Source: Candidatus Magasanikiibacteriota bacterium (lineage in GTDB: Bacteria > Patescibacteriota > Patescibacteriia > Magasanikbacterales > GWA2-37-8). From it: a stretch of 64,000 nucleotides of DNA. Shown piece by piece: positions 11,047 to 56,506 of this stretch. Position 1 is the first letter of the stretch; every line of letters starts with the position of its first letter. The stretch spans positions 107,274 through 171,273 of the forward strand of contig CAWDHY010000001.1 of NCBI GenBank assembly GCA_963802255.1, written 5' to 3'. Below the pieces are notes generated by a model. It was given only the letters and a program-made list of their open reading frames with translations. It was not told the DNA's origin and made no database searches. A program made the translations under genes and the position numbers.

Positions 11047-11271
11047 ATGAATTCTACGAAAGTACAAGTAAGCAAGGCATGTCATTACTGTGTGAACAAC
11101 AAGACTGCGGTTGATTATAAGGATGTCGTCAATCTTCGTCGTTTTGTTTCTTCATATATGAAGATAGCGCCCAGACGAAGAAGCGGATTGTGCGCTAAAC
11201 ATCAGCGACAGGTGTCAAGCGCGATAAAGCGCGCGCGACAGGCCTCGCTTATGCCTTTTATACCAAAGTAA
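11047..11271 (+). CDS. rpsR: 30S ribosomal protein S18
   Basis: conserved S18 core (YKDV..LRRF..KI.PRR.SGLC.KHQR). Confidence 0.9.
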   Translation: MNSTKVQVSKACHYCVNNKTAVDYKDVVNLRRFVSSYMKIAPRRRSGLCAKHQRQVSSAIKRARQASLMPFIPK

Positions 11272-11277
11272 AAAAGA

Positions 11278-11305
11278 TTACCCCGCACCTGCGGGGTAAT
11301 TTAAT
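11278..11305 (+). terminator. hairpin attaccccgc-acct-gcggggtaat after rpsR (weak T-tract)
   Basis: 10-bp perfect stem; downstream tract TTAATAAT is only partly U-rich. Confidence 0.4.
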
Positions 11306-11308
11306 AAT

Positions 11309-12346
11309 ATGTCAACCTGGTCTGATTTAAAAAATAATCCGCGTCTTCACGAAATTTACAAAAAGCGTTTAGAAATAACCCATCTAATACGCAATTTTTT
11401 TTGGTCTGAAGATTTTCAGGAAGCGGAAACACCAGTCGCCTTAAGATTACCCGGACAGGAGCCGTATTTAAATCCTATTCAGGTTCTGATTCATGATCCG
11501 CACTGTGTTGAGAATAAATTTTATCTGCAAACATCCCCTGAATTTGCCATGAAAAAATTATTGGCCGCGGGTTATGACAAAATTTTTCAGATATGTAAAT
11601 GCTTCCGGGATTTCGAACAATTCGGCGGCAATCACAACACTGAATTTACTATGATTGAATGGTACCGCGCGCCGGGAACTTTTGAAGAAATAATGGATGA
11701 TACGGAAAAATTATTTAAATATGTGGCAGCTGAGTTAAAGGTGAAAAGTGTGAAGTACAAAGATAGAGAAGTCGATATTTCAGGTGGATGGGAAAGGATG
11801 AGTATGCGTGAGGTATGGAAAAAATATTTAAATGTTGAATTAGATGAATATTTGAAAAGTGAAACGATAGCGGAGTTGGCGCGAGAGCAAGGGTATGTGG
11901 CCGAAGAAAAAGAGGCGTATGAAGACTTATTTTACAAATTATTTTTAAATGAAATTGAACCAAAGCTTGGAGTGGAAAAGCCGATAATGATTTATGATTA
12001 TCCTGAACAGATGACGTCGCTTTCACGAATATCAAAAAATGATTCACGTTATGCTGAGAGATTTGAACTGTATATTGCAGGTTTGGAATTGGCCAACGCA
12101 TTCGGTGAAATAGTTGACCCGATCGAACAAAAAAAACGGCTTGAAGCAGACAAAAATAAGCGAAAAGAGCTGGGTAAAGAGATTTGGCCGGTAGACCCAG
12201 ATTTTATTTCCGCTCTTGAATCAGGTATCGTGAGTGCCGGTGGAATCGCCCTTGGTCTTGATCGGATGATAATGCTTTTTACCGGGGCAAATGACATAAA
12301 TGAAGTGATTTTTCAGGCCGTGGGCGACCTGATAGGAAATGAGTAA
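11309..12346 (+). CDS. epmA: EF-P lysine34--(R)-beta-lysine ligase EpmA (PoxA/GenX, truncated class II LysRS paralog)
   Basis: class II aaRS catalytic core (motif 2 FTMIEWYRA, motif 3 region) without an anticodon-binding domain; about 345 aa; located next to efp. Confidence 0.65.
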   Translation: MSTWSDLKNNPRLHEIYKKRLEITHLIRNFFWSEDFQEAETPVALRLPGQEPYLNPIQVLIHDPHCVENKFYLQTSPEFAMKKLLAAGYDKIFQICKCFRDFEQFGGNHNTEFTMIEWYRAPGTFEEIMDDTEKLFKYVAAELKVKSVKYKDREVDISGGWERMSMREVWKKYLNVELDEYLKSETIAELAREQGYVAEEKEAYEDLFYKLFLNEIEPKLGVEKPIMIYDYPEQMTSLSRISKNDSRYAERFELYIAGLELANAFGEIVDPIEQKKRLEADKNKRKELGKEIWPVDPDFISALESGIVSAGGIALGLDRMIMLFTGANDINEVIFQAVGDLIGNE

Positions 12347-14314: not shown

Positions 14315-14320
14315 TGAATG

Positions 14321-14486
14321 TAGTGAAGGGAGTCGAACGGGCAGAAGCGAGACGCGAAGTTTTTGCGGAAGCAAAAACAAGTTGGCGAGAGTCGTCGGAC
14401 TGCCAGTGGCAGTCCGACGCTGCCCAGGACAAGGAGACGAGACGGTTGCGGCCGGCGAGGCGACGAGGAACTCCCCTTACCGCTCA
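14321..14486 (+). repeat. family-A tRNA-appended structured element, copy 1 (candidate ncRNA or miniature mobile element)
   Basis: roughly 80-90% identical by eye to the reverse complement of 24536-24698; 5' end gggagtcgaac is the reverse complement of the tRNA-Gly(TCC) T-loop region; 3' end ctccccttaccgctca copies the tRNA 3' end; internal hairpins show compensatory changes between copies; flanked by terminators. Confidence 0.6.
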
Positions 14487-14548: not shown

Positions 14549-17074
14549 ATGCAGTTATCTATTACATCTCAAACAATTGATTGGCTATATAAGCGTTTTG
14601 AAACTTCAGAGCAGGGATTGTTGCCGACTGAAGCCGAACTCCGCCGAAAAAAATATGGCTTGAATGAATTATCGGCTAAAGAGATAAAGTGGTGGCATAT
14701 TTTAGGCCGTCAATTTAGGTCGCCTTTTATTTATTTGTTAATTTTTGCCGCAAGTTTGGCGCTTGTGATGAGAGAATTAATTGATGGTTTAATGATTTTG
14801 GTCTTCGTGATGATAAACGCTACCTTAGGGTTTGCGGAAGAATATCATTCAGAAAGATCTTTGCGCCTGTTAAAAAAGTTTGTAGTAACGAAAGCGCGCG
14901 TCAGGCGCCACGGCCATGAAATGCTGGTTGATTCATGTCTTCTTGTACCCGGCGATGTCGTTCTTATTGAAACGGGCGATGTGGTGCCGGCAGATTTACG
15001 TTTTATTATTACAAATGGGCTTTCAATTGACGAGTCGGTTATTACAGGAGAGTCGGCACCTCAAAATAAATCTGTTGCGACTTTAAAGCACGAAGCTAAA
15101 CAATTGAGTGATGCGACAAATTTTGGTTTTATGAGTACAGTTGTTTCTGCCGGAAAGGGTGTCGGTGTGGTTGTTAACACCGGAAAAGATACCGCGGTTG
15201 GGGGAATGGCAAAATTGACATCGGAAACTGAACGTAAAAGTTCTTTTGAAAAAGGTATCGCCAGATTCAGTTCATTCATATTGCGAATGGTTGTTCTAAT
15301 AATCGTATTGTTATTCGCGGCCAATATCATTATTAAAGGGCCGGAAGCTGATTTGGGTAATTTATTATTGTTTTCTATAGCACTTGCGGTTAGTGTTATT
15401 CCGGAAGCATTACCTCTAGTTACTACATTATCTCTCTCCCGGGGAGCTTTACGTATGGCAAAAGGAAGCGTTGTAGTTAAACGCTTGTCTGCGGTTGAAG
15501 ATCTGGGTAGCATAGAAGTTTTGTGTACTGATAAAACCGGAACAATAACGGAAAATAAATTGGTGGTGAAAGAAGTGTATTCCAAGGACGAAAGAGCGTG
15601 TTTGTTGAGCGCTGGTGCGGCATCGTCATTTATTGGTGAGGGGAAGCAGGAACCAAATAATGCATTTGATTTGGCCATCTGGAATAATTTAATTGCCACG
15701 GAGAAGAAAAGCGTACTGAAGTGTGGCCGGATAAATGAAATGCCGTTTGATCCTGCCAGGCGCAGAAATAGCGTGGTGGTGAAGAACAATGGCGGCTGCC
15801 GGTTAATTGTACGGGGCGCCGCTGAATCGGTACTGCCTCTTTGCGAACATTTAGGGAATGGGGAATTAAAAAGGATACTGAAATGGGTTGCGGATAAAGG
15901 TGTGGAAGGTTGCCGCACAATAGTTGTGGCTGAGAAAAAATGTGAAGAGATGATTTCCTATGATGACGGGGCTGAAAAAAAATTGATATTTATCGGAGCA
16001 ATCGCTTTTGACGATCCGATAAAGTCGTCAACAATTTCCGCTATTGAAAAAGCTAGACGCCTGGGCGTTCAAGTTAAAATACTAACCGGCGATAGCCGGG
16101 AAGTGGCCGGCGCCGTGGCGCTAAAAGTTGGTTTAATTGATGACGCAAGCAAAATTATCACAGGAGAAGAAATTGATGTTTTACCGGAAAAAAAGCGTGC
16201 CGCGGTGATATTCGAAAATAGCGTTTTTGCCAGAGTTTCTCCGGAGCAGAAATACCGGATTATTGAAGTACTCCAAAGCAAACATGAAGTTGGCTTTTTA
16301 GGAGAAGGTATCAATGACGCGCCGGCGCTAAAATTGGCCAATGTTGCCTTAGCGGTTAACAGTGCGTCGGATATCGCGCGGGAAGCATCAGACATAGTAT
16401 TGCTTCATTCAAGTTTGGCGGTAATTATTGACGGGATAAAAAATGGCCGGGAGGTTTTTGCTAATACGGTGAAATATTTAAAGGTCACTTTAGTTTCAAA
16501 TTTTGGAAATTTTTATGCTATTGCCGCCGCGTCTCTGATCGTGCCTTTTCTGCCGATGTTGCCGGTTCAAATATTGCTTCTTAATTTGCTGTCTGATTTT
16601 CCGATGGTTGCAATCGCCACTGATAAAGTGGACAAAGAGGAACTGCGGCGGCCACGTTCGTATAATATCCGCGAGGTTGTTCTGATGGCTATTATTTTAG
16701 GTTTAGTCAGTACGATATTTGATTTTATATTTTTTGCAATATTTTTTCACCGCGAACCAGCTGTACTGCAAGCAGGGTGGTTTATCGGCAGCGTATTAAC
16801 CGAATTAATTTTAATATATTCTATTCGAACGCGGCTGGCTTTTTGGAAGGCAAAAATGCCCTCTTGGCCGCTTCTCATATTAACTGTTTCGGCTGTAATA
16901 TTCTCCGTGTTTTTACCACTTTCACATTTTGGCCGGTCCATTTTTAAATTTGGCATATTGTCACTGCGGGATATTTTCACGATATTAATCGTTGTTTTTA
17001 TCTACTTTATTATCACCGAACTATTGAAGCGTATATATTATGCAAAAATAGGTAACGGAAAATTAGCCGCTTGA
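14549..17074 (+). CDS. cation-transporting P-type ATPase (P2/P3-like, Mg2+/Ca2+ type)
   Basis: phosphorylation motif CTDKTGTITENK, TGES-like region, hinge GEGINDAPAL, ten predicted TM helices. The track ORF begins at 14363 inside the element; the first ATG with the conserved N-terminus is at 14549. Confidence 0.85.
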   Translation: MQLSITSQTIDWLYKRFETSEQGLLPTEAELRRKKYGLNELSAKEIKWWHILGRQFRSPFIYLLIFAASLALVMRELIDGLMILVFVMINATLGFAEEYHSERSLRLLKKFVVTKARVRRHGHEMLVDSCLLVPGDVVLIETGDVVPADLRFIITNGLSIDESVITGESAPQNKSVATLKHEAKQLSDATNFGFMSTVVSAGKGVGVVVNTGKDTAVGGMAKLTSETERKSSFEKGIARFSSFILRMVVLIIVLLFAANIIIKGPEADLGNLLLFSIALAVSVIPEALPLVTTLSLSRGALRMAKGSVVVKRLSAVEDLGSIEVLCTDKTGTITENKLVVKEVYSKDERACLLSAGAASSFIGEGKQEPNNAFDLAIWNNLIATEKKSVLKCGRINEMPFDPARRRNSVVVKNNGGCRLIVRGAAESVLPLCEHLGNGELKRILKWVADKGVEGCRTIVVAEKKCEEMISYDDGAEKKLIFIGAIAFDDPIKSSTISAIEKARRLGVQVKILTGDSREVAGAVALKVGLIDDASKIITGEEIDVLPEKKRAAVIFENSVFARVSPEQKYRIIEVLQSKHEVGFLGEGINDAPALKLANVALAVNSASDIAREASDIVLLHSSLAVIIDGIKNGREVFANTVKYLKVTLVSNFGNFYAIAAASLIVPFLPMLPVQILLLNLLSDFPMVAIATDKVDKEELRRPRSYNIREVVLMAIILGLVSTIFDFIFFAIFFHREPAVLQAGWFIGSVLTELILIYSIRTRLAFWKAKMPSWPLLILTVSAVIFSVFLPLSHFGRSIFKFGILSLRDIFTILIVVFIYFIITELLKRIYYAKIGNGKLAA

Positions 17075-17081
17075 TCGTTTC

Positions 17082-17110
17082 TTGACAAAATGGAGTTATT
17101 TTTGTACAAT
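17082..17110 (+). promoter_or_regulatory. sigma70-like promoter (TTGACA, 17-nt spacer, TACAAT) driving the tRNA-Gly(GCC)/tRNA-fMet cluster
   Basis: -35 at 17082-17087 and -10 at 17105-17110, just after the ATPase stop. Confidence 0.5.
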
Positions 17111-17138
17111 GTTGACACAAATACAGAGTAAATATCGC

Positions 17139-17360
17139 GCGGGTATGCTCAGGTATAGCCGCGTCGCTCGGAAACAATGAACGAGCTAGCTTATTCATTG
17201 TGTTCCTCACTCGCGGGTATACTCAGGTATATCCGCTCATTCGGAGAAAGTATACGAGTTTGCTCGTCTACTCTGCTCCTCATTTCGCGGGTATACTAAG
17301 GTATACCCACTCATTCGCGGAAAATGTCAAAATAAATTTTGCCACTTTGCCGCTCATTTC
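17139..17360 (+). repeat. three degenerate ~74-nt tandem pseudo-copies of the tRNA-Gly(GCC) 5' region
   Basis: gcgggtat(g/a)ct(c/a)aggtata recurs at 17139, 17213 and 17287 with a 74-nt period, each preceded by ctca(t)ttc as at the real tRNA; each unit begins with a hairpin gggtatac..gtataccc. Confidence 0.6.
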
Positions 17361-17432
17361 GCGGGTATAGTACAACGGTTAGTATACGTCCTTGCCAAGG
17401 ATGAGATGGCGGTTCGATTCCGCTTACCCGCT
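17361..17432 (+). tRNA. tRNA-Gly (anticodon GCC)
   Basis: cloverleaf; anticodon loop UUGCCAA; T-loop TTCGATT; acceptor GCGGGTA/TACCCGC. Confidence 0.85.
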
Positions 17433-17472
17433 CTGAATATTATTGCGGATACTTGTCCGCGATAATATTCAG
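17433..17472. other. 17-bp inverted repeat hairpin (ctgaatattattgcgga / tccgcgataatattcag) between the two tRNAs
   Basis: near-perfect 40-nt palindrome with no U-tract; likely a processing or spacer structure. Confidence 0.5.
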
Positions 17473-17482
17473 GGGAAAATAT

Positions 17483-17555
17483 AGCGGGGTAGAGCAATTG
17501 GCAGCTCGTCGGGCTCATAACCCGAAGGTTCCCGGTTCAAGTCCGGGCCCCGCAA
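17483..17555 (+). tRNA. initiator tRNA-fMet (anticodon CAT) with an A1xA72 mismatch
   Basis: three consecutive G:C pairs 29-31:39-41 in the anticodon stem, loop CUCAUAA, unpaired 1:72, discriminator A; no encoded CCA. Confidence 0.8.
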
Positions 17556-17915
17556 CAAAGTTGCGAAGGGGCAGTAACCACTGCTCTTTTGTATTTGTGC
17601 CGCGCAGGGACGCTTTGCGTCCCGTAGGCGGCTAACCATGTTTTGCGTGAATCGGTTCAAGTCCGGGCCCCGCAACAAAGTTGCGAAGGGGCAGTAACCA
17701 CTGCTCTTTTGTATTTGTGCCGCGCAGGGACGCTTTGCGTCCCGTAGGCGGCTAACCATGTTTTGCGTGAATCGGTTCAAGTCCGGGCCCCGCAACAAAG
17801 TTGCGAAGGGGCAGTAACCACTGCTCTTTTGTATTTGTGCCGCGCAGGGACGCTTTGCGTCCCGTAGGCGGCTAACCATGTTTTGCGTGAATCGGTTCAA
17901 GTCCGGGCCCCGCAA
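17556..17915 (+). repeat. 3 x 120-nt tandem array; each unit is a 94-nt structured spacer plus a 26-28-nt copy of the tRNA-fMet T-loop/acceptor 3' end
   Basis: period 120 (ggttcaa at 17534, 17654, 17774, 17894); units virtually identical; internal hairpins gcagtaaccactgc and gggacgc-ttt-gcgtccc; the track ORF 17469..17918 is a translation of this repeat. Confidence 0.85.
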
Positions 17916-17958
17916 CAACTAAAAACATCTCCGCATAAGCGGAGATGTTTTTAGTTGT
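17911..17958. terminator. bidirectional terminator with a 22-bp perfect inverted repeat (caacaactaaaaacatctccgc / gcggagatgtttttagttgttg)
   Basis: long perfect stem with U-tracts on both strands; closes the tRNA array and the convergent perM-like gene. Confidence 0.6.
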
Positions 17959-17968
17959 TGCAATGAAA

Positions 17969-19024
17969 TTATTTATTTTTATCCAAATTCTTTCGGAAAG
18001 AGTTTTCGTACATATCCCAAAATGCCATCATCAGCGCGGCAATAATCGGACCGATGATAAAACCAGAAATTCCAAATACAGCAATGCCGCCTAATGTGGA
18101 GAGTAATACTAGCAATGGGTGCATCTGCGAGTCTTTCCCAACCAATATTGGTCGTAAAAAATTATCAATAGTGCCGATTACCAGTCCGCCAAAAAGTATC
18201 ATGCCGATGCCGGTCCAAGTGTGCCCGGTGATAAGCATAACGATAGCGACCGGCAACCAAATAAAGTATGGGCCGACGCCAGGGACTGAAGACGCGAGAA
18301 CCATCAGAATGCCCCAGATAATAGCTCCGTCGATTCCGACAACAGCAAACATTAAACCGCCCAGCGCGCCCTGTATTAATCCGACAATCAGCGATCCTTT
18401 TATTGTTGCTCTTGCCGTTGAAGTGAATTTATCATAAAGCATTTTTTCATGTTCATCCCCAAGCGGGCACAGATGCATCATCTTTTTGAGAATTTTTTCT
18501 CCGTCTCGTATAAAAAAGAACAGGGTATAAAAAGAAACAAATAACATTATTAAAAATATAATAGTGTTTTGAGTGAACGACTTTGCGCTGCTGATAAGAA
18601 ATGTCGTCACGCCTTTTGTTAATTCTGAAAATTTTGCCGCCCAAAAAGCTTCGTCGATATTTAATCTTGTGGTATAAGGGTTATTTTTCACCCACTCTAT
18701 AGCATTGTGTATGCTATTGTTAATCTCTCCTCCATTTGAGGCGAGGGATGAATATAAATTAATTGATTCTTTTACGACCAGAGAGCTGACTAAAATAAGC
18801 GGAATTATTATAATGAAAAAAATGACCGTCATTGTAATGGCCGTACTTAAATTTGGGACATTCAATTTTTTATTTACTATGCGGTAGAGCGGATAAAAGA
18901 TACCGGCGATAATTGCCGCCCAGAAAATTGGATAGGCAAATGTTTTTATTATCCAAAGAAAAGCGATTGATACAATCGCGAGTAATGTTAAGAAAAGAAA
19001 GTTGCGGATTTTAGCAAAGTCCAT
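17969..19024 (-). CDS. AI-2E family transporter (PerM/UPF0118)
   Basis: about 8 TM helices with the characteristic AI-2E layout and a conserved C-terminal block. Confidence 0.55.
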   Translation of the reverse strand: MDFAKIRNFLFLTLLAIVSIAFLWIIKTFAYPIFWAAIIAGIFYPLYRIVNKKLNVPNLSTAITMTVIFFIIIIPLILVSSLVVKESINLYSSLASNGGEINNSIHNAIEWVKNNPYTTRLNIDEAFWAAKFSELTKGVTTFLISSAKSFTQNTIIFLIMLFVSFYTLFFFIRDGEKILKKMMHLCPLGDEHEKMLYDKFTSTARATIKGSLIVGLIQGALGGLMFAVVGIDGAIIWGILMVLASSVPGVGPYFIWLPVAIVMLITGHTWTGIGMILFGGLVIGTIDNFLRPILVGKDSQMHPLLVLLSTLGGIAVFGISGFIIGPIIAALMMAFWDMYENSFRKNLDKNK

Positions 19025-24497: not shown

Positions 24498-24535
24498 CAT
24501 AAAAAAATACCCCGAAGAAAGCGGGGATTTTTTTG
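24498..24535. terminator. hairpin ccccgaagaaagcgggg with U-tracts on both strands
   Basis: 5-bp GC stem with 7-nt loop; T-run on + strand, A-run on + strand (= T-run on minus strand). Confidence 0.5.
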
Positions 24536-24698
24536 TGGTCCGGGTGGGAATTACTCGTCGTCTCGCCGACCACAATCGGCTCGACTCCTTGCCCTGGGCA
24601 GCGACGGACTGCCACGGGCAGTCCGTCGACTCTCGCCAGCTCGTTTTTGCTTCCGAAAAAACTTCGCTTCTCGCTTCTGCCCGTTCGATTCCCTCGTC
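24536..24698 (-). repeat. family-A tRNA-appended structured element, copy 2 (downstream of tRNA-Leu-TAA)
   Basis: homologous to 14321-14486; 5' end (minus strand) gggaatcgaac is the reverse complement of the tRNA-Leu(TAA) T-loop region; 3' end attcccacccggaccac at 24536-24552 copies the tRNA 3' 17 nt. Confidence 0.6.
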
Positions 24699-24699
24699 T

Positions 24700-24737
24700 G
24701 ACATTTAAAAATACGGCTCCAACAAAAATTGGAACCG
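24700..24737 (-). terminator. hairpin acggttccaa-ttttt-gttggagccgt followed by ATTTTT (minus strand)
   Basis: 10-bp stem with one mismatch, directly after tRNA-Leu. Confidence 0.5.
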
Positions 24738-31413: not shown

Positions 31414-32400
31414 ATGAAGAATATTTTTAGAATATTAATTGCATCGGTTATTTTCAGTTGTTTGTTTTTGGTTGCGCAGAGCCAAGCGGCTGCTCTTTAT
31501 TGTCACGATGGCGATAACTGCTACGAAGTAAATGAATCAAATTTGGCAGATTGTGCCAATATTAGTGAGACGCCATGTTCGACTAGCAGTTCTTCCGGTG
31601 CGTCAGCACAACCGACAAGTAAAATAATTCCGGCATGTCTTTTGGGGAATAATATAGACGGAAGTTGTGATAACATAAATATTTTTATCACATTTGCCAT
31701 AAATATCGGCATATATATTTTTGGCTTTATCGGGGCATTGGCTCTTCTGATGTTTGTTTATGGCGGTTTTATTTTGATAATGTCACAGGGCAACCAGGAA
31801 AAAGTTAAAAAAGGGACGGGCGCAATCACTGCGGCGGTTATAGGGTTAGTAATTGCATTTAGCGCTTACGCGCTGATTACATTCCTGAGTAATACTATTG
31901 GTGTAAAATCAGGGAAGAGCATAAATTTTGTGGAGACAGTATTTGCACAATCTTCAGAAGAAGGTAATGGCTGTATCATTGATGGAAAATGTATAATTTT
32001 GTCTGATCCGGGTGAATTTTGTGGCGATCCATGCAATTACGATTTAGAATTATTAACCCCGGTGGAATTAAATGAAATGCAGGACGTGCTCGAAGGCGGG
32101 CAGACAAAGCCGGCACAAAAGGGTATCTCTTCACTGGTAGCGGGCGCAAAAAAATTAAATCCAATGCAAATCAGCTCTCCGTATAGTCTGCTTGCGGGTG
32201 GAGTAAATATTTTGCTTGCGTTCATGGGTTCTATTGCATTATTGTTGTATATTTATGCCGGTTTTATCTGGATGTCTGCGGGAGGATCGGCAGACAAGAT
32301 TACTAAGGCCAAAAAAATTCTCATCTGGACAACTTTCGGGATTCTCGCGATGACCGGTAGTTACATGGTTGTTAATACTATACTCAAGCAAATAGGCTAA
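31414..32400 (+). CDS. two-TM pilin-like protein (TrbC/VirB2-like), double-domain paralog 1
   Basis: signal peptide; two copies of the core (LLMFVYGGFILIMSQGNQEKVKKG..IGLVIAFSAYALITF and LLYIYAGFIWMSAGGSADKITKAKKIL..GILAMTGSYMVVNTIL) separated by a Cys-rich segment. Confidence 0.6.
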   Translation: MKNIFRILIASVIFSCLFLVAQSQAAALYCHDGDNCYEVNESNLADCANISETPCSTSSSSGASAQPTSKIIPACLLGNNIDGSCDNINIFITFAINIGIYIFGFIGALALLMFVYGGFILIMSQGNQEKVKKGTGAITAAVIGLVIAFSAYALITFLSNTIGVKSGKSINFVETVFAQSSEEGNGCIIDGKCIILSDPGEFCGDPCNYDLELLTPVELNEMQDVLEGGQTKPAQKGISSLVAGAKKLNPMQISSPYSLLAGGVNILLAFMGSIALLLYIYAGFIWMSAGGSADKITKAKKILIWTTFGILAMTGSYMVVNTILKQIG

Positions 32401-32406
32401 ACAAAT

Positions 32407-32805
32407 ATGAGACTACTTAAACAGATACTAATTTTTACACTACTGTTGAATGGCGTTATGATACTTGCACCGGTCGTATGTTTTTCAAGTGAAGTAAAAA
32501 CAGTAGATCTTGAAAACCCGATACAGTTAAAAGATAGTAAGGGTAAAGTGCTGAAAGATGAAGCGATTACCCCGGCTGTAATAATAGGTACGGTAATAAA
32601 GTCGTTTTTAGGGGTTGTCGGCGGCTTATCATTGGTAATGATGGTTTATGGAGGTTTTCAGTGGCTCACCTCTGCCGGGAATGACGAAAAGGTTAAGCGC
32701 GGCACACAAACGATGATGTGGTCAATAATCGGATTAGTGGTGGTTTTAGCCAGTTATTTACTGGTCAATACTGTTCTTAGATTTTTGGCTGGTGCAAAGT
32801 CTTGA
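32407..32805 (+). CDS. two-TM pilin-like protein, paralog 2
   Basis: core LVMMVYGGFQWLTSAGNDEKVKRGTQTM..IGLVVVLASYLLVNTVL. Confidence 0.6.
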   Translation: MRLLKQILIFTLLLNGVMILAPVVCFSSEVKTVDLENPIQLKDSKGKVLKDEAITPAVIIGTVIKSFLGVVGGLSLVMMVYGGFQWLTSAGNDEKVKRGTQTMMWSIIGLVVVLASYLLVNTVLRFLAGAKS

Positions 32806-32896
32806 TGATTGCGTAAAATATCATTTTAAGATAAAATATTTTTAAGTAATGATTATCCGGCACATAAGTGCCAATTCCTTGAAAGGGGGTGAAATT

Positions 32897-33310
32897 ATGA
32901 AAAAATTAGTAGTATTTGCAGCTTCATTTGCCTTGTTATTGGGTGGTTTTATGAGTTTCAATGTAGCTCCGGCATATGCCAGCGAAGGCGTTCTCGGTAC
33001 AGATGATTTAGGCATTGGATATGCAGCTGATACAGGTCTCGGTAGTGAAGATGTTCGTGCCACAGTTGCACGTATCATCCGAGTGGCCATGGGCCTGCTA
33101 GGTATCGTCGCTGTTGTTATTATTTTGATCGGTGGTTTTAAATGGATGACTGCCGGCGGTAATGAAGAACAGGTCGGAGAAGCTAAAAAATGGATATTCT
33201 CCGGTGTGATTGGTTTGGCTATTATTTTGTCAGCATATGCGTTAGCCAGCTTTATTATTTCTCAATTAGTCACGGCAACAACCGGGACGGGTTCCGGTAC
33301 GGGACTATAA
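32897..33310 (+). CDS. two-TM pilin-like protein, paralog 3
   Basis: SD GGGGGTG upstream of ATG 32897; core IILIGGFKWMTAGGNEEQVGEAKKWI..IGLAIILSAYALASFII. Confidence 0.6.
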   Translation: MKKLVVFAASFALLLGGFMSFNVAPAYASEGVLGTDDLGIGYAADTGLGSEDVRATVARIIRVAMGLLGIVAVVIILIGGFKWMTAGGNEEQVGEAKKWIFSGVIGLAIILSAYALASFIISQLVTATTGTGSGTGL

Positions 33311-33398
33311 GTTTTTTCTGTCAGGGGGTTCGCGCGCGCAACCCCCTGACAGAAATTCCGGTTTGGTTTTTTTAAAAAGAATCCAGACCAGAATAAAT

Positions 33399-33818
33399 AT
33401 GGCCATTAAAAGGCTTTTTCTAGTGTTGATATTAACGGGGGCATTTTTTTTGCCTGTGTTTGTTGGCGCTCAAGGAGAAATGAATGATAAATATGGTCTT
33501 GATAAAACAGCGAATAAGACTAAATTACCAACTCTTGGTATAAGCAAACAAACACCGGAAACGCTGGCTAATACTATTGTAACGACAGTTTTAATGTTCG
33601 TCGGAACGATTTTTTTCTTGTTGGTTTTGTATGCAGGATTATCCTGGATGACGGCCGGCGGATCTTCTGAAAAAGTTAATAAAGCTAAAATGATGCTGGA
33701 AACAGCGGTAATTGGCTTGTTAATTGTTGCTGCCTCATATGCTATTTCAATATTTGTATTTGAAAGGCTGACAACCCCGCCGGAAGTAACTGCTCCGGCA
33801 ACCTCAACAGCGCAATAA
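33399..33818 (+). CDS. two-TM pilin-like protein, paralog 4
   Basis: core LLVLYAGLSWMTAGGSSEKVNKAKMML..IGLLIVAASYAISIFVF. Confidence 0.55.
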   Translation: MAIKRLFLVLILTGAFFLPVFVGAQGEMNDKYGLDKTANKTKLPTLGISKQTPETLANTIVTTVLMFVGTIFFLLVLYAGLSWMTAGGSSEKVNKAKMMLETAVIGLLIVAASYAISIFVFERLTTPPEVTAPATSTAQ

Positions 33819-33821
33819 TGT

Positions 33822-34811
33822 ATGATTAAAAATTTTACAAAATTAACCGCAGCAGTTGTGGCCGCCTCGATCATGGTTGCATCATTGTGGATGGCGATAA
33901 ATGTTGTGAAGGCTCAAGGCGACGCGACATATGGCCTGCAAACAGCCGGCCAACAATCAGGTTTGGCATCAAATCAAATTTCCGCGGGTGCAGCGGGTGG
34001 AAGTATCCCGAAAGTTTTGGGTAATTTAGTATCAATTGCGTTGTCTTTAGTTGGCGTTTATTTTTTTATTTTGATTTTATACGCCGGACTTACATGGATG
34101 ACTGCCGCCGGTTCGCAGGAAAAGGTGGCATCGGCAAAAAGTCGTCTGCAGTCGGCGGCGATCGGCTTAGTTATTGTGCTTTCTGCTTATACTATTACCA
34201 GCTTTGTTTTTGATACTTTTATTCAAGAATCAGGAGAAGTATGCGCGAATACCCCGGATGGAGTATATGCTGCGGAATGTGCGGCTAAGGGCCTAAACCA
34301 AGTATGTAAAAGTCAAAAATGTGTAAGTGAGTGTGAATATGCCTTTAAAGATGCCGGAGGATCTTGTATTGATATCAATACAAAGTCATGCGAAGACAAA
34401 AAAATTATTTCAGGATTATGCAGTACTGAAGGTTTTGAATGTTGTATTCCTACTGAAGCATACGCCGCATGGGTTAGTTCTGGGGCTTCAGCGCCGGAGT
34501 CTGTGGAAAGCGGTACCTCGGAAAAAACCGCCTGTGAGAAGCAGCCGGGTTTCCAATGTGCGGAAAAATTTACTTGCGAGGACATTTTAAACGGGAAATC
34601 TTCCGACCCGCAAGGTTGCCCCACCGGGCAAGTTTGTTGTAAGAATTGTATGAAATTGGGGGGGCATTGTATTGATACTACAAGATTTGTCTGCAATAAT
34701 GAGCAAAAAAATCAGAAAAGCGGTTTTTGCTACGGAGCATATCAGGCCGCTGATTTTAAGTGTTGCATCGGCACATATGAATCGCAAGTCAGTGATATAT
34801 ATTTTAAATAA
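33822..34811 (+). CDS. two-TM pilin-like protein, paralog 5, with a ~190-aa Cys-rich C-terminal domain
   Basis: core ILILYAGLTWMTAAGSQEKVASAKSRL..IGLVIVLSAYTITSFVF; more than 20 Cys in the C-terminal region. Confidence 0.6.
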   Translation: MIKNFTKLTAAVVAASIMVASLWMAINVVKAQGDATYGLQTAGQQSGLASNQISAGAAGGSIPKVLGNLVSIALSLVGVYFFILILYAGLTWMTAAGSQEKVASAKSRLQSAAIGLVIVLSAYTITSFVFDTFIQESGEVCANTPDGVYAAECAAKGLNQVCKSQKCVSECEYAFKDAGGSCIDINTKSCEDKKIISGLCSTEGFECCIPTEAYAAWVSSGASAPESVESGTSEKTACEKQPGFQCAEKFTCEDILNGKSSDPQGCPTGQVCCKNCMKLGGHCIDTTRFVCNNEQKNQKSGFCYGAYQAADFKCCIGTYESQVSDIYFK

Positions 34812-34817
34812 TACTTT

Positions 34818-35291
34818 ATGAAAAAAATTATTGTATACATAATTGTCTCTCTGGCTATTTTGGCTCCGCAGTTTGTTTTTGCTGACGCATTGGGGACAAG
34901 TTTATTAAATAAATCAGTTGGGGGAGTTGGCCTTGAATCCAGTCTTGAGACAAGCACCGCGAATGTAATAATCGCAGTTTTGGCAGTAGTTGGGACAGTA
35001 TTTTTAGTTTTAACGGTTGTTGCCGGAATTATGTGGATGACCGCTTCCGGCAATGAAGAAAAAATTACAAAGGCAAAAAAAATTATAATTGGTGCGATTA
35101 TCGGCTTGGCAATTACGTTATTTGCCTACACCATTACCGCCTTTGTTTCTTCGCGATTAGTCCAAAGCGGCAATGTTGAAGGAACGAGTAATTGTAATCA
35201 AATGGGAGGAACTTGTGTGAGCGTCAGTACATGCCCTTCGGGTAATGTTATCGGTTCATGTCCGTCAGGAGATGTTTGCTGCAGTTTATAA
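34818..35291 (+). CDS. two-TM pilin-like protein, paralog 6, with a short Cys-rich tail
   Basis: core VVAGIMWMTASGNEEKITKAKKII..IGLAITLFAYTITAFV; tail CNQMGGTCVSVSTCPSGNVIGSCPSGDVCC. Confidence 0.6.
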   Translation: MKKIIVYIIVSLAILAPQFVFADALGTSLLNKSVGGVGLESSLETSTANVIIAVLAVVGTVFLVLTVVAGIMWMTASGNEEKITKAKKIIIGAIIGLAITLFAYTITAFVSSRLVQSGNVEGTSNCNQMGGTCVSVSTCPSGNVIGSCPSGDVCCSL

Positions 35292-35296
35292 TAATT

Positions 35297-35830
35297 ATGA
35301 AATTGCATAAAAAAATATTGGTTATTTTATTTGCACTGATTATTTTTCCTGTTTGCGTCGGCGCAGCCGATGAACCGAGAGGCCTTCAGACAGCAGGATC
35401 AAAACTCGGGAGCATACAATCATCAGTCGGTTTGTCATCAGATATATCTTCATTCACTGAAAATGCTTTGAAAGGTTTTTTCTATTTATTAGGCACGGCC
35501 TTTCTTATTTTGACCATATACGGTGGATTTGTCTGGATAAAAGCGGCCGGACGCGATGAAGAAGTAACCCGGGCAAAAAAAATTATCACCACGGCAGTTA
35601 TTGGCTTACTAATTTTGCTTTCATCATACGCCATTACTTTCTTTGTTTTATTGCGGATAGCGGGCGCACCAGTCAGCGGCGAACCTATAAGCGGGCCATC
35701 CGGCGGTAGTACCGCAGGCTTGGGGTGCTGTATGTCAACTGAAAATCCGGCTAATATTACGCCGATGTCAAAAGAGGCTTGCGTTGCAAAAGGCGGGGCA
35801 TTTATGTGGACGTCTTCACCATGCAAATAA
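35297..35830 (+). CDS. two-TM pilin-like protein, paralog 7, with a Cys-rich tail
   Basis: ATG at 35297 (the track begins at 35258); core LTIYGGFVWIKAAGRDEEVTRAKKII..IGLLILLSSYAITFFVL; tail GCCMSTENP..CVAKGG..SSPCK. Confidence 0.6.
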   Translation: MKLHKKILVILFALIIFPVCVGAADEPRGLQTAGSKLGSIQSSVGLSSDISSFTENALKGFFYLLGTAFLILTIYGGFVWIKAAGRDEEVTRAKKIITTAVIGLLILLSSYAITFFVLLRIAGAPVSGEPISGPSGGSTAGLGCCMSTENPANITPMSKEACVAKGGAFMWTSSPCK

Positions 35831-35855
35831 TCTATTAATATTTATCAGGGAAAAT

Positions 35856-36425
35856 ATGTTTAAAAAAAGATTACTGTTTATCGCAATGCTCGGTCTTTTT
35901 ATTTTTCCGATAATTGCTTATTGTGCTCCGAATATAGGGCTTGGACAGAGTGGAATGGCGCAAAATATTGCCGGTCAAGCTGGCTATGACACGAGTGGAG
36001 ATGAATACGCTTTATCGCGGACCATTGGCGGAATAATACGTGGTGTTTTATCTTTAGTTGGTGTAATTTTTTTGGTTCTAACTATTTACGCTGGCCTTCT
36101 TTGGATGACGGCATCGGGAGCGGAAGATAAAATCTCTAAAGCAAAAGATATTTTAAAATCGTCGGTTATCGGTTTAGCCATTGTTGCTTCGGCGTATGGT
36201 ATAACCGCATTGGTTATGAGTTTTGTCATCGGCGCATCGGCTCCAAGCACGGATACCGGCCAATACGGGCCAGAATCAACAATGGGCTGTTGTTATTGGG
36301 AGGCAGAAAAGAAGTGCGCCCAAACTACATCGGCGGCGACATGCGGACAAAAATGGGAAGATGCGAGGTGGTATGCCGGAGAATCATGCACTCCATATTT
36401 TGATTGTGAACATATTGAATATTAA
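35856..36425 (+). CDS. two-TM pilin-like protein, paralog 8, with a Cys-rich tail
   Basis: ATG at 35856; core LTIYAGLLWMTASGAEDKISKAKDIL..IGLAIVASAYGITALVM; tail GCCYWEAEKKC..CGQKWEDARWYAGESCTPYFDCEH. Confidence 0.6.
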   Translation: MFKKRLLFIAMLGLFIFPIIAYCAPNIGLGQSGMAQNIAGQAGYDTSGDEYALSRTIGGIIRGVLSLVGVIFLVLTIYAGLLWMTASGAEDKISKAKDILKSSVIGLAIVASAYGITALVMSFVIGASAPSTDTGQYGPESTMGCCYWEAEKKCAQTTSAATCGQKWEDARWYAGESCTPYFDCEHIEY

Positions 36426-38327: not shown

Positions 38328-38411
38328 GATTAAGAAAACATAGCCATTTTAGCATATTTTGCCCGAAAAATCAAGATGAGGTATAATATATACTATTAAT
38401 TGATATTTTAT

Positions 38412-38888
38412 ATGTATAGAATAGTACTACTGATAGTGGCGATAGCCAGTTTGCTATTTATCGGTGTTCAAGTGCAGGCGTCTGGTTTTGGTTTAAAGGA
38501 TACGGCGACAAAAGCCGGTTATGAGACGAGTGGAGAAGCGGCATCTGTCACCGGCCGAATTCAAACTATCGTTTCAGCAATTCTTGGTTTTGTAGCCTTA
38601 TTATTTTTTGGTCTTACTTTGTATGGTGGTTTAACTTGGCTAACCGCGAGAGGCAAGGAAGACAAAATTACTGAAGCTAAAGGCATACTTGAGGCCGCAG
38701 CCATTGGTTTGGTAATAATTGCCGCATCATACGCAATAGCAAATTTCATATTAGGACGGATATCACAATCTGCTGTCGGCTGTTGTAGCTATACTACAGA
38801 AGCAGGTATGGAATTTACAAATATTTCAAAAGAAGAGTGCGACACTCACAGCGGTGATTGGTCTGCCGGAGACTGCGGTGCCATATAG
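38412..38888 (+). CDS. two-TM pilin-like protein, outlying paralog 10, with a Cys-rich tail
   Basis: TATAAT box at 38382; ATG at 38412 (the track TTG is at 38400); core LTLYGGLTWLTARGKEDKITEAKGIL..IGLVIIAASYAIANFIL; tail GCCSYTTEAGMEFTNISKEECDTHSGDWSAGDCGAI. Confidence 0.55.
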   Translation: MYRIVLLIVAIASLLFIGVQVQASGFGLKDTATKAGYETSGEAASVTGRIQTIVSAILGFVALLFFGLTLYGGLTWLTARGKEDKITEAKGILEAAAIGLVIIAASYAIANFILGRISQSAVGCCSYTTEAGMEFTNISKEECDTHSGDWSAGDCGAI

Positions 38889-42406: not shown

Positions 42407-42436
42407 CAAAACGAGCCAATAGTTTGGCTCGTTTTT
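42407..42436 (+). terminator. hairpin aacgagcc-aatagtt-tggctcgtt followed by TTTT
   Basis: 9-bp stem plus U-tract right after the tRNA. Confidence 0.55.
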
Positions 42437-42556
42437 AGGACGAGAACGCCGGAGCGATGTTTGACGAACTTGCAGGTGAGGCAAACCGCGAGGCGGTGAC
42501 TAGCCCGAGTAGGCGGAAGCCAACGAGAGGCGAGGTCGAGTCCTCTCCCCGGCACC
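42437..42556 (+). repeat. family-B tRNA-appended structured element, copy 1 (downstream of tRNA-Leu-TAG)
   Basis: shares cores acgccggagcgatgt and accgcgaggcggtg(a/g)ctag with the element at 56351-56506 (minus strand); 3' end ggtcgagtcctctccccggcacca at 42534-42556 copies the tRNA 3' end; 5' end aggac-gagaac resembles an inverted T-arm. Confidence 0.55.
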
Positions 42557-43769: not shown

Positions 43770-46870
<3,101 letters not shown>

Positions 46871-56350: not shown

Positions 56351-56506
56351 GTGGGTCGCCAGGGATTCGGCTTCAACTAAAATTTTCTTCCAAAAATTTT
56401 GTCTAGCCACCGCCTCGCGGTCGCGCTCGCTCTTTTGCATCGCGCGACATCGCTCCGGCGTCCGAATCCCTGTCGCGACCAAAACTGTTTGGTCGCTTCG
56501 CCCAAA
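56351..56506 (-). repeat. family-B tRNA-appended structured element, copy 2 (downstream of tRNA-Lys-CTT)
   Basis: minus-strand 3' end ccgaatccctggcgacccac (56351-56370) copies the tRNA-Lys 3' 20 nt exactly; 5' end cagggattcggac is an inverted copy of the Lys T-arm; family-B core motifs; the box tttggtcgcttcgccc plus a terminator module is duplicated at 56294-56345 and 56488-56537. Confidence 0.55.

What the first reader, a model, noticed from the sequence alone, without database searches (positions are those of the whole stretch)
17533..17958. Initiator tRNA followed by a 3 x 120-nt tandem array, each unit ending in the tRNA-fMet T-loop and acceptor 3' end
The last 28 nt of tRNA-fMet (cggttcaagtccgggccccgcaacaaag) plus a 94-nt structured spacer are repeated in tandem three more times with essentially no divergence. 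The track ORF 17469..17918 (-) is a translation of this repeat. This is not CRISPR-like: there are no unique spacers. Each unit contains hairpins gcagtaaccactgc and gggacgc-ttt-gcgtccc, and the array ends in a 22-bp perfect inverted-repeat terminator. Together with families A and B, this makes five tRNAs in the window that are followed by a copy of their own 3' end. Here the copy is amplified, suggesting either recent replication-slippage expansion or a functional array, for example decoy 3' halves of the initiator tRNA, a known target of tRNA-directed toxins.
Basis: seen in the sequence. Interest (0 to 1): 0.7.

Follow-up and report, generated by a model that had tools for sequence, protein, structure and literature searches.

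The report
RtT-like repeat array behind initiator tRNA
Three identical 120-bp units, each ending in a copy of the initiator tRNA's own last 26 bases, follow that tRNA gene in a tiny Patescibacteria genome; this repeats the layout of the old, still unexplained RtT repeats behind the E. coli tyrosine tRNA genes, and there is no evidence that the units are tRNA decoys.

Summary
tRNA-Met(CAT), initiator type, lies at 17483-17556 and is followed by a 120-nt tandem repeat (17533-17918, 3.2 copies, 100% identical). Each unit ends in the tRNA's last 26 nt, and the array closes with a 22-bp perfect hairpin.

The array is an accessory insertion. The closest relative (neighbouring permease 84% identical) has only tRNA plus a terminator. 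Other relatives carry 0, 1 or 2 units of a different module, or 5-7 kb islands encoding a large serine recombinase (LSR), at the same tRNA end.

The 94-nt spacer has one homologue (85%). It lies between an LSR island and a further copy of the tRNA 3' end in a related genome.

The layout matches E. coli RtT, the 178 bp x 3.1 repeat behind tyrV, which I re-checked here: a 5' stretch antisense to the tRNA 3' strand, a structured core, and a 3' copy of the tRNA end. By covariance model the unit is not a member of RtT, nor of a large covariation-supported family ("family A") that I found behind tRNAs of most types in Patescibacteria.

Best reading: an RtT-like tRNA-trailer module, recently amplified by unequal recombination. 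The decoy idea is unsupported. Function remains unknown.

The parts
17082..17110 (+). Candidate sigma-70 promoter (TTGACA-17-TACAAT) of the tRNA-Gly / tRNA-fMet operon
   Evidence: Consensus scan, 11 of 12 positions match. This is a consensus match only.
17361..17433 (+). tRNA-Gly(GCC), first gene of the operon
   Evidence: ARAGORN and Rfam. The order Gly-gcc, then fMet, then a convergent permease is conserved in relatives.
17483..17556 (+). Initiator-type tRNA-Met(CAT). Its last 26 nt (17533-17558, including two trailer bases) are the first copy of the repeated segment 'a'.
17533..17652 (+). Repeat unit 1. Layout: 'a' (17533-17558); antisense-acceptor segment GTTGCGAAGGGG (17560-17571); hairpin GCAGTAACCACTGC (17571-17584) followed by a T-run (17585-17598); outer stem GCCGC/GCGGC (17599-17603 with 17628-17632) enclosing hairpin GGGACGC-TTT-GCGTCCC (17607-17623); linker up to GTGAAT (17633-17652).
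   Evidence: TRF, fold, sequence.
17653..17772 (+). Repeat unit 2, identical to unit 1
17773..17892 (+). Repeat unit 3, identical to unit 1
17893..17918 (+). Terminal fourth copy of the tRNA 3' end ('a', 26 nt)
   Evidence: Identical to 17533-17558.
17913..17960 (.). 22-bp perfect inverted repeat (loop ATAA). Likely a bidirectional terminator shared with the convergent AI-2E permease gene (17969-19024, minus strand).
   Evidence: Sequence, fold, Pfam on the permease. The simple terminator scan did not flag it because the T-run lies inside the stem.
17469..17918 (-). Spurious 149-aa ORF: translation of the repeat plus the antisense of the tRNA
17137..17360 (+). Three degenerate 74-nt units upstream of tRNA-Gly. 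Each starts with the tRNA's first ~10 nt followed by an inverted copy of them. This mirrors, at the 5' side of the operon, what the array does at the 3' side.
   Evidence: the repeat finder families D5 and D19, 67-87% identity; sequence. Not followed up.
14320..14486 (+). Context: 'family B' trailer element behind tRNA-Gly(TCC). It ends in a copy of that tRNA's 3' end, with a 1-nt deletion.
24535..24700 (-). Context: 'family B' trailer element behind tRNA-Leu(TAA). It ends in ATTCCCACCCGGACCAC, the tRNA's own 3' end.
42434..42555 (+). Context: 'family A' trailer element behind tRNA-Leu(TAG)
   Evidence: Model R1, 124.5 bits, E = 9e-40.
56351..56473 (-). Context: 'family A' trailer element behind tRNA-Lys(CTT)
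   Evidence: Model R1, 116.3 bits, E = 6e-37.

Best explanation
The array consists of three tandem copies of a small accessory 'tRNA-trailer' module. Its design is that of the RtT repeats behind the E. coli tyrT/tyrV genes.

Each 120-bp module has four parts:
- a short stretch antisense to the tRNA's acceptor 3' strand (GTTGCGAAGGGG against CCCC-GCAAC);
- a small hairpin followed by a U-run;
- a GC-rich hairpin;
- a copy of the initiator tRNA's own last 26 nt, starting in the T stem.

Shown:
- The module is not ancestral to the locus.
- This tRNA end is a hypervariable insertion site among relatives.
- The only homologue of the spacer lies between a serine-recombinase island and a further copy of the tRNA end.
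- The same architecture recurs behind four other tRNAs in the window, and arrays of such modules occur elsewhere.

Inferred:
- One module, flanked by two copies of the tRNA end, arose by an insertion or recombination event at the tRNA 3' end.
- It was then amplified to three copies very recently, by unequal homologous recombination or replication slippage between the repeats.
- The array is transcribed only as the trailer of the Gly-fMet tRNA operon, and most transcripts stop at the first unit's hairpin and U-run. The distal units would then be largely silent DNA rather than a battery of decoy RNAs.
- Each junction of tRNA end and antisense segment recreates the palindromic site where a serine-recombinase island is inserted in a relative. 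The array therefore multiplies a recombination hot spot.
For: 1. Anatomy. The predicted fold of a single unit closes it with the 5' antisense segment paired to the 3' tRNA-end copy.

2. The array is accessory, and the site is hypervariable.
- Closest relative L027 (permease 84% identical): tRNA, a simple terminator, then the permease.
- L034: a 33-nt remnant of the 3' end of a recombinase gene directly after the tRNA.
- L028-L033: only the first ~50 nt of the spacer (80% identical), as a single copy.
- L003 and L004: one unit of a different module. L005: that module at 152 nt x 2.1, 100% identical.
- L001 and L024: 5-7 kb islands encoding a large serine recombinase.

3. Spacer homologue. The L001 segment is 64/75 = 85% identical to the spacer, apart from a 20-nt hairpin indel. 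It lies between the island and a second copy of the tRNA end that has the same boundary as in the window. The island is inserted exactly between ...CCCCGCAAC and GAAGTGCGAAGGGG.

4. Known precedent, re-checked here. E. coli K-12 tyrV is followed by 178 bp x 3.1 at 95% identity. Each unit ends in the last 19 nt of tRNA-Tyr and begins with the antisense of that segment. There are four Rfam RtT hits of 133-137 bits. Unit number per E. coli genome ranges from 1 to 9, so copy number is unstable.

5. The class is real and widespread.
- Family A: 98 metagenome loci, 75 with a same-strand tRNA less than 200 nt upstream, and 61 with a detected copy of that tRNA's own 3' end about 37-42 nt after the motif in nearly all.
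- Its 35-pair structure has 94.6% of cells paired, against 33-41% in the slid controls, and 22 pairs show compensatory changes.

6. Arrays elsewhere. There is a mosaic of a family A unit plus a family B unit behind one tRNA-Asp, and an older array at 89% identity behind a tRNA-Ser.

7. Independent assembly evidence for at least two units.

8. No recombinase or toxin gene in the 64-kb window.
Against: - The unit is not detectably homologous to RtT or to family A. The Rfam RtT model gives no hit at E <= 10, and my family A model gives no hit at E <= 10. The link rests on architecture and short motifs.
- Only one homologue of the full spacer was found (L001). Exact-pattern scans of metagenome and viral collections found none.
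- The event that created the first module flanked by two tRNA-end copies is not identified. The other recombinase islands examined (L024, L026) carry no distal copy of the tRNA end, so the islands do not explain the duplication in general.
- Transcription, termination and processing are all inferred. The terminator scan did not flag the unit hairpin.
- Family A is under clear structural constraint. The class may therefore have a cellular function that I cannot name, and the three copies could matter.
Confidence: 0.6

Rival explanations
1. The units are a functional structured RNA, in effect three gene copies. Each would be an RtT-like small RNA cut out of the tRNA operon transcript by the tRNA-processing enzymes, because its paired ends mimic an acceptor stem, and it would act in the cell. 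A role in the stringent response was once suggested for E. coli rtT.
For: - Family A, which has the same architecture, shows strong covariation. It often lies between tRNA genes of one operon, so it must be transcribed.
- RtT is a processed RNA with covariation support (PMC8250186).
- The unit folds better than shuffled sequence, z = -3.6.
- The window/L001 differences in the first hairpin swap G-C and G-U pairs, which keeps pairing only on the tRNA-sense RNA strand.
Against: - The module is absent from the closest relative.
- The 20-nt hairpin is dispensable in L001.
- No covariance-model match to family A or RtT.
- Only two sequences are available, so covariation cannot be assessed.
- The function of rtT is itself still unknown (10.1101/2024.07.17.603846).
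Confidence: 0.2
2. The module is a scar of site-specific recombination. The spacer plus the tRNA-end copy would be the distal (attR-side) end of a serine-recombinase genomic island that integrated at the tRNA 3' end and then lost its interior. Three rounds, or later amplification, gave the array.
For: - In L001 the spacer homologue and the tRNA-end copy sit at the far boundary of a 7.1-kb island flanked by a 57-nt direct repeat at 96% identity.
- Junctions between four half-sites all meet at CAAC.
- A recombinase-gene remnant lies directly behind the tRNA in L034 and behind the distal copy in L001.
Against: - Islands of the same recombinase family in L024 and L026 have no distal copy of the tRNA end.
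- The first ~50 nt of the spacer is the plain tRNA trailer in L028-L033, which have no island. In L001 the island is therefore more simply read as inserted between the tRNA and a module that was already there.
- No recombinase is encoded in the window.
Confidence: 0.15
3. The units are decoy 3' halves of initiator tRNA that soak up a tRNA-directed toxin or enzyme.
For: Each unit carries an exact T-loop and acceptor 3' strand of tRNA-fMet. One island at this locus in a relative carries an AbiEii-type nucleotidyltransferase.
Against: - The units have no anticodon arm and no 5' acceptor strand of normal form.
- A terminator-like hairpin opens each unit.
- The same design occurs behind many elongator tRNAs.
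- No toxin domain is present in the window.
- The array is absent from the closest relative.
Confidence: 0.04
4. The copy number is an assembly artefact. The repeat is real, but 'three' is an assembler's guess for a perfect 120-bp tandem repeat.
For: Perfect identity over 360 nt cannot be resolved by short reads alone. A Logan contig breaks at the array.
Against: The position of the break shows at least two units in an independent run. The source contig is 628 kb. Comparable arrays of 2-3 units occur in other assemblies and in finished E. coli genomes.
Confidence: 0.1

Closest known systems
RtT RNA / the 178-bp x 3.14 repeats of the E. coli tyrT-tyrV locus (Rfam RF00391; described 1978-1991, cited from memory; re-checked here)
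   Same: - A tRNA gene is followed directly by about 3.1-3.2 tandem units.
- Each unit ends in a copy of that tRNA's own 3' end, starting in the T arm.
- Each unit starts with a stretch antisense to that copy, so the two ends pair and close a structured GC-rich core.
- An artefactual or dubious small ORF is read from the repeat (tpr in E. coli).
- Copy number is unstable.
- Function is unknown.
   Different: - No detectable sequence or covariance-model similarity.
- The unit is 120 nt rather than 178 nt.
- The copy is 26 nt starting in the T stem, rather than 19 nt starting in the T loop.
- The antisense stretch covers the acceptor strand only, not the T arm.
- The units are 100% identical rather than 95%.
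- The host is a Patescibacteria genome and the tRNA is the initiator.
'Family A' tRNA-trailer elements of Patescibacteria
   Same: - Same position and logic: antisense of the tRNA 3' part, a hairpin, a GC-rich core closed by a CGCC...GGCG stem followed by AGGCGG, then a copy of the tRNA end.
- Family A occupies the same tRNA-fMet site in L003-L005 and L053, and forms a perfect 2.1-copy array in L005.
- The leader GAAGTG...AAGGGG is shared between L053, L001 and the window.
   Different: - The R1 model gives no hit on the fMet units at E <= 10.
- The units lack the antisense-T segment, the invariant GAACGCCGGAGCGAU and GAGGCGGUGG blocks, and the GGAA hairpin.
attL/attR duplications made by elements that integrate into tRNA genes, and their tandem accretion (tRNA-targeting integrases; cis-mobilisable elements; from established knowledge)
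   Same: - Direct repeats equal to the 3' part of a tRNA gene, starting in the T arm.
- Presence or absence varies among relatives.
- Several units can stack at one tRNA.
- Real recombinase islands use this very tRNA end in relatives.
   Different: Only 94 nt lie between the repeats, and no integrase is encoded in the module or anywhere in the 64-kb window. The recombinase islands seen here mostly do not duplicate the tRNA end.
Type III antitoxin arrays (ToxI-type tandem RNA repeats)
   Same: A tandem array of short, identical, structured non-coding units.
   Different: No toxin gene follows; the next gene is a convergent AI-2E permease. Units are 120 nt rather than about 36 nt. The tRNA-end copy has no counterpart.

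Membership tests
RtT RNA (Rfam RF00391) | Lies immediately downstream of a tRNA gene, in tandem copies | tested here: met
   Window array 17533-17918. E. coli reference 178 bp x 3.1.
RtT RNA (Rfam RF00391) | Each unit ends with a copy of the upstream tRNA's 3' end | tested here: met
   26 nt in the window. 19 nt (AATCCTTCCCCCACCACCA) in E. coli.
RtT RNA (Rfam RF00391) | A closing helix between a 5' antisense segment and the 3' tRNA-end copy | tested here: met
   The Rfam consensus pairs GgGaaGG with CCuuCcC. In the window unit GUUGCG pairs with CGCAAC in the predicted fold. This is a shorter helix and rests on a single-sequence prediction only.
RtT RNA (Rfam RF00391) | Match to the family covariance model at the gathering score | tested here: not met
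   No RtT hit at the gathering score on the whole window, nor at E <= 10 on 17050-18000. The four E. coli units score 133-137 bits.
   Window hits are only at 42434-42555 and 56351-56473. Nothing on the fMet array at E <= 10 with filters off.
Integrated element bounded by attL/attR in a tRNA gene | Direct repeats equal to the 3' part of the tRNA | tested here: met
   Four copies of the 26-nt segment.
Integrated element bounded by attL/attR in a tRNA gene | A recombinase gene between the repeats or nearby | tested here: not met
   Only 94 nt lie between repeats. A profile of the serine recombinase finds nothing in the six-frame translation of the window. No integrase, resolvase or transposase Pfam hit in 59 ORFs.
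Integrated element bounded by attL/attR in a tRNA gene | An empty site in close relatives | tested here: met
   L027, and also L002.
CRISPR array | Short repeats separated by unique spacers | tested here: not met
   All three 94-nt 'spacers' are identical.
Type III toxin-antitoxin (ToxIN-like) | A toxin endoribonuclease gene directly downstream of the repeat array | tested here: not met
   The array is followed by a hairpin and a convergent AI-2E transporter gene.
Decoy or target of an initiator-tRNA-directed toxin | The toxin's recognition element (the anticodon stem-loop for VapC-type toxins) and a toxin gene in the genome | tested here: not met
   The units contain only tRNA positions ~50-76. 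No PIN/VapC domain is found in the window; the only related hit is a NYN-domain protein at 39344-39919. The rest of the genome could not be searched.

The most novel reading that the evidence does not exclude
The fMet units, families A and B, and E. coli RtT may all belong to one ancient and widespread class of small elements. These would live at the 3' ends of tRNA genes and copy the target tRNA's own 3' end in both sense and antisense. They would be either a new kind of tiny non-autonomous mobile element that retargets between tRNA types, or a class of acceptor-stem-mimicking RNAs matured by the tRNA-processing machinery. In this reduced genome they sit behind 5 of the 11 tRNAs in the window. 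On this reading the fMet array is a freshly multiplied member, and its tRNA-end/antisense junctions also serve as landing sites for serine-recombinase defence islands.
Probability: 0.3. Interest if true: 0.8.

Novelty: new variant of a known kind. Interest (0 to 1): 0.55.

Why it matters
The RtT repeats of E. coli have been known for more than forty years without an accepted function or origin. This finding and its context show that the same design is common in Patescibacteria:
- it occurs behind many different tRNAs;
- at least one large family has strong covariation support;
- it forms perfect, diverged and mosaic arrays;
- it sits at a site that serine-recombinase islands carrying restriction-modification and Abi cargo also use.

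That turns a one-species curiosity into a comparative problem that can be attacked directly: which parts covary, which tRNA positions are copied, and what co-occurs with the elements.

There are practical consequences too. Such arrays create false ORFs and break short-read assemblies next to tRNA genes, and their tRNA 3'-end copies could be mistaken for integrase att sites or prophage boundaries.

Tried and rejected
- Known RNA families. Rfam at gathering score on the whole window, and at E <= 10 on the array and on two sister elements, gave only tRNAs and chance hits. Rfam on the L001 island gave nothing.
- Exact-pattern scans for the fMet spacer. The spacer/tRNA junction in metagenome contigs gave 0 hits. 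The left part of the spacer in viral contigs gave 0 hits.
- The family A pattern in viral contigs gave 17 hits. All lie in GC-rich phage coding sequence, consistent with chance.
- The L001 recombinase in viral contigs found no relatives.
- Idea: the long inverted repeats of the recombinase islands are family A elements. Rejected; model R1 finds nothing in L001, L024, L025, L026, L006 or L002.
- Idea: a recombinase island in L108 sits at a tRNA-end copy behind a family A element. Rejected; it abuts a genuine tRNA-Pro.
- Idea: the elements relate to the group I introns reported in Patescibacteria tRNA genes. Rejected; those introns lie in the anticodon loop at position 35/36 and are much larger (PMC13011429).
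- Literature searches for structured RNAs downstream of tRNAs, or serine recombinases at tRNA genes, in Patescibacteria found nothing relevant.
- The simple terminator scan flags neither the unit hairpin nor the terminal 22-bp hairpin. Both terminator assignments therefore rest on reading the sequence.
- I did not build a family B model; the instances are too few and too heterogeneous. Homology between family B and RtT remains an impression from shared motifs (...GAGUA|AUYCC, CGAGAG, CCCGAAGG).
Full report
**1. What is there**

ARAGORN and Rfam place tRNA-Gly(GCC) at 17361-17433 and tRNA-Met(CAT) at 17483-17556 on the plus strand. The Met tRNA has initiator hallmarks that can be read in the sequence: GGG/CCC at the base of the anticodon stem and an unpaired 1:72 position.

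Tandem Repeats Finder reports one array at 17533-17918, with period 120, 3.2 copies, 100% matches and no indels. The three units are string-identical.

The repeated block starts inside the tRNA, in the 5' strand of the T stem. The tRNA's last 26 nt, which I call 'a', therefore occur four times, and the 94-nt spacer occurs three times.

After the fourth 'a' comes a 22-bp perfect inverted repeat (17913-17934 / 17939-17960). After that lies the 3' end of a convergent AI-2E family permease gene (17969-19024, minus strand).

The 149-aa ORF on the minus strand is a 40-residue peptide repeated three times, plus the antisense of the tRNA. It has no credible Pfam match.

**2. Anatomy of a unit**

After ...CCCCGCAAC-AAA the unit reads as follows:
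- GTTGCGAAGGGG, the inverted complement of the acceptor 3' strand with an AA bulge;
- a small hairpin, GCAGTAACCACTGC, followed by TCTTTTGTATTTG;
- an outer stem GCCGC/GCGGC enclosing the hairpin GGGACGC-TTT-GCGTCCC;
- a linker;
- 'a' again.

The predicted fold of a single unit closes it by pairing GUUGCG with the CGCAAC of the next 'a'. The z-score is -3.6 for one unit and -10.3 for the tRNA plus array.

The spacer has 54% G+C in a window of 41.5%.

The consensus terminator scan flagged neither the unit hairpin nor the terminal hairpin. Calling them terminators rests on reading the sequence.

**3. Is the array real?**

The identical permease protein is encoded on a 628-kb contig, the likely source of the window. 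It is also encoded on a 6,462-nt Logan contig from run ERR12035938. That contig ends exactly 80 nt past the stop codon, which is window position 17889.

Logan assemblies are built with k=31, and every 31-mer is kept distinct (PMC12424806). The 30-mer 17889-17918 occurs three times in the window, with two different following bases. The tRNA's own copy shares only 26 nt with it.

A break at exactly that base therefore requires at least two spacer units in that independent data set. The figure of three cannot be verified without reads.

**4. Relatives**

The organism is a Patescibacteria (CPR) bacterium near the Magasanikbacteria. The order tRNA-Gly(GCC), tRNA-fMet, convergent permease is conserved, but what lies between the tRNA and the permease is not.

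| Locus | Permease identity | What follows tRNA-fMet |
|---|---|---|
| L027 (closest relative) | 84% | A simple terminator only |
| L034 | 73% | A 33-nt remnant of the 3' end of a large serine recombinase (LSR) gene; it encodes the conserved ...PYQILAER... motif |
| L028-L033 | 73% | The first ~50 nt of the spacer (44/55 identical) as a single copy, then 0.8 kb of unrelated sequence |
| L002 | 60% | No copy of the tRNA end; the permease gene ends about 80 nt away |
| L006 | 55% | No copy of the tRNA end; about 5 kb of uncharacterised sequence before the permease |
| L003, L004 | 51% | One unit of a different module |
| L005 | 51% | That different module at 152 nt x 2.1, 100% identical |
| L001 | 77% | A 7.1-kb LSR island carrying a restriction-modification system |
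| L024 | not measured | A ~5.5-kb LSR island carrying AbiEii/TrmB genes |

The window's array is therefore a lineage-specific addition at a hypervariable site.

**5. The one homologue of the spacer**

In L001 the segment just inside the distal boundary of the island is 85% identical to the window spacer (64/75 aligned positions). It lacks the 20-nt GGGACGC hairpin. It is followed by a second copy of the tRNA end with the same left boundary (GTGAAT|CGGTTCAAG), and then by another recombinase-gene remnant.

The island itself is inserted exactly between ...CCCCGCAAC and GAAGTGCGAAGGGG.

Two readings are possible.
- The spacer and tRNA-end copy were already there, and the island landed in the palindromic junction of tRNA end and antisense segment.
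- The spacer and tRNA-end copy form the far end of the island.

The left half of the spacer is the plain tRNA trailer in L028-L033, which have no island. And sister islands in L024 and L026 carry no distal copy of the tRNA end.

Either way, the junction repeated three times in the window is a site used by this recombinase family.

**6. The wider pattern in the window**

Five of the eleven tRNAs are followed, 100-200 nt downstream, by a copy of their own 3' end: fMet, Gly-tcc, Leu-taa, Leu-tag and Lys-ctt. The Leu-tag and Lys-ctt elements share a conserved core, which I call family A. The Gly-tcc and Leu-taa elements share another, family B.

All of them begin with a stretch antisense to the tRNA's T arm or acceptor strand, and all end with the sense copy.

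**7. Family A is a large, structured family**

A pattern taken from its core found 98 loci in metagenome contigs.
- 75 have a same-strand tRNA less than 200 nt upstream.
- 61 have a detected copy of that same tRNA's 3' end, about 37-42 nt after the pattern in nearly all. The copy includes CCA where the tRNA gene encodes it.
- The tRNAs involved cover about 16 amino-acid specificities.

An alignment of 42 elements gives a 35-pair consensus structure. In it, 94.6% of cells are paired, against 33-41% when the partners are slid, and 22 pairs show compensatory changes. No shuffle out of 500 reaches the observed covariation score.

The family is not in Rfam 15. It often lies between tRNA genes of one operon, so it must be transcribed.

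My model of it scores the two window copies at 124.5 and 116.3 bits. It gives nothing on the fMet units at E <= 10, and 7 bits (not significant) on the Leu-taa element.

The fMet unit therefore shares the design and some short motifs with family A: the leader GAAGTG...AAGGGG, a GCC...GGCGG stem, and AGGCGG. It is not a demonstrable member.

**8. Arrays are a recurrent property of the class**

- L005 carries a perfect 2.1-copy array at the same tRNA-fMet site.
- L110 has a 105-nt x 2.0 array at 89% identity behind a tRNA-Ser.
- L124 has a full unit followed by a truncated unit.
- L094 has a family A unit, a tRNA-end copy, a family B unit and another tRNA-end copy behind one tRNA-Asp.

The L094 mosaic cannot arise by unequal crossing-over of a single unit. 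It shows that modules can also be added one after another. For three identical units, as in the window, amplification of one unit is the simpler explanation, but repeated insertion is not excluded.

**9. The known precedent**

From memory, the E. coli tyrT locus carries a 178-bp sequence repeated 3.14 times, each unit ending in the last 19 nt of tRNA-Tyr, and it gives rise to rtT RNA. I checked this on K-12.
- TRF finds 178 bp x 3.1 at 95% identity directly behind tyrV.
- Rfam RtT (RF00391) hits four units at 133-137 bits.
- Each unit ends in AATCCTTCCCCCACCACCA.
- Each unit begins with GGGGAAGGAT-GAGAAGC, the antisense of that end. It includes the same GGAUGAGAAC string seen in many family A elements.
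- The Rfam consensus closes the structure by pairing these two ends.

My family A model aligns end to end with the four RtT units, but only at 8-10 bits.

Among 5,426 complete E. coli genomes, 4,700 carry the unit, at 1 to 9 places per genome. Copy number is therefore labile in the known case as well.

A 2024 preprint still calls the mode of action of rtT unknown (10.1101/2024.07.17.603846). A review reports covariation support and a tandem G-A motif for the RNA (PMC8250186).

**10. What argues against the decoy idea**

- The units contain only tRNA positions ~50-76.
- Each unit opens with a hairpin and U-run.
- The design is not specific to the initiator tRNA.
- The closest relative does without the array.
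- The 59 ORFs of at least 100 aa in the window are ordinary genes: a P-type ATPase, RuvB, PNPase, RNase III, NusB, GyrA, pilus and pilin genes and others. None has a PIN/VapC-type, colicin-like, integrase, resolvase or transposase domain. The nearest thing is a NYN-domain protein at 39344-39919.
- A profile of the recombinase family finds nothing in the six-frame translation of the window.
- The rest of the genome could not be examined.

**11. Verdict**

The finding is a real, perfect tandem array of an RtT-like tRNA-trailer module behind the initiator tRNA of a Patescibacteria genome. It is best filed as a new variant of a known but poorly understood kind.

What it works like: the E. coli RtT repeats.

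What it is a member of: neither Rfam RtT nor family A, by model.

Most likely history: insertion of one module at a recombination-prone tRNA end, followed by recent amplification through unequal recombination.

Function: unknown. A passive, selfish or neutral status is the default. The strong structural constraint on the sister family, however, means that a cellular role for the class cannot be dismissed.

Noticed in passing
window 42434-42555(+) and 56351-56473(-); loci L037-L134: 'Family A': an apparently undescribed structured element of ~160 nt, not in Rfam 15. It lies directly 3' of tRNA genes of about 16 amino-acid types in Patescibacteria metagenomes (98 loci). It starts with the antisense of the neighbouring tRNA's T arm or acceptor strand and ends with that tRNA's own T-loop-to-3'-end. 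The 35-pair consensus has 94.6% of cells paired and 22 pairs with compensatory changes.
   Followed up: yes
window ~14320-14486(+) and ~24535-24700(-); L034 ~11230-11345(-) and downstream of the tRNA at 16597; L074; L094: 'Family B': a second trailer-element family with the same logic, behind Gly-tcc and Leu-taa. Its 3' junction ...GAGTA|ATTCCC and motifs such as CGAGAG and CCCGAAGG resemble E. coli RtT, but the RtT model does not hit it at E <= 10.
   Followed up: partly
L001 11099-18307; L024 1400-6944; L025 1-1889; L026 6600-11605; L108 1-1240; L110 1-472: A very abundant and conserved large serine recombinase family (more than 5,000 hits; ~70% identity across phyla). Its ORF always runs antisense through an entire tRNA gene (Met, Pro or Ser). 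In the four islands checked for repeats (L001, L024, L025, L026) the gene is flanked by 91-158-nt near-perfect inverted repeats. The cargo (restriction-modification, AbiEii/TrmB) is bracketed by a second inverted-repeat pair in L001 and L026.
   Followed up: partly
L094 (minus strand, downstream of tRNA-Asp 937-1011): A mosaic array: a family A unit, a tRNA-end copy, a family B unit and another tRNA-end copy. Trailer modules can therefore accumulate by successive addition, not only by amplification of one unit.
   Followed up: partly
window 17137-17360: Three degenerate 74-nt units upstream of tRNA-Gly(GCC). Each starts with the tRNA's first ~10 nt (GCGGGTATA) followed by an inverted copy of them. 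This is a 5'-side counterpart of the 3'-side array, and it is absent from relative L027.
   Followed up: no
L034 ~11095-11130(-) and L001 ~11099-11135: A 33-37-nt remnant of the recombinase gene's 3' end (ACATTAGGACTCG...CCAGAA) sits directly after a tRNA-fMet end with no island present. This looks like a scar of past island insertion and loss.
   Followed up: partly
window 31414-36422 and 38400-38885: A run of nine consecutive ORFs, plus one more nearby, all matching the T4SS_pilin domain (PF18895). This is a paralogous pilin cluster.
   Followed up: no
window 43760-47065: The 23S rRNA match spans 3,102 nt against a 2,925-position model, which suggests an insertion. It is followed by 5S rRNA, but no 16S gene lies next to it.
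   Followed up: no
window 42795-42922: An imperfect GACACN hexanucleotide repeat (13.5 copies) inside ORF 42784-43407, which has no Pfam match. It encodes an Asp/Thr-rich repeat just downstream of the Leu-tag trailer element.
   Followed up: no
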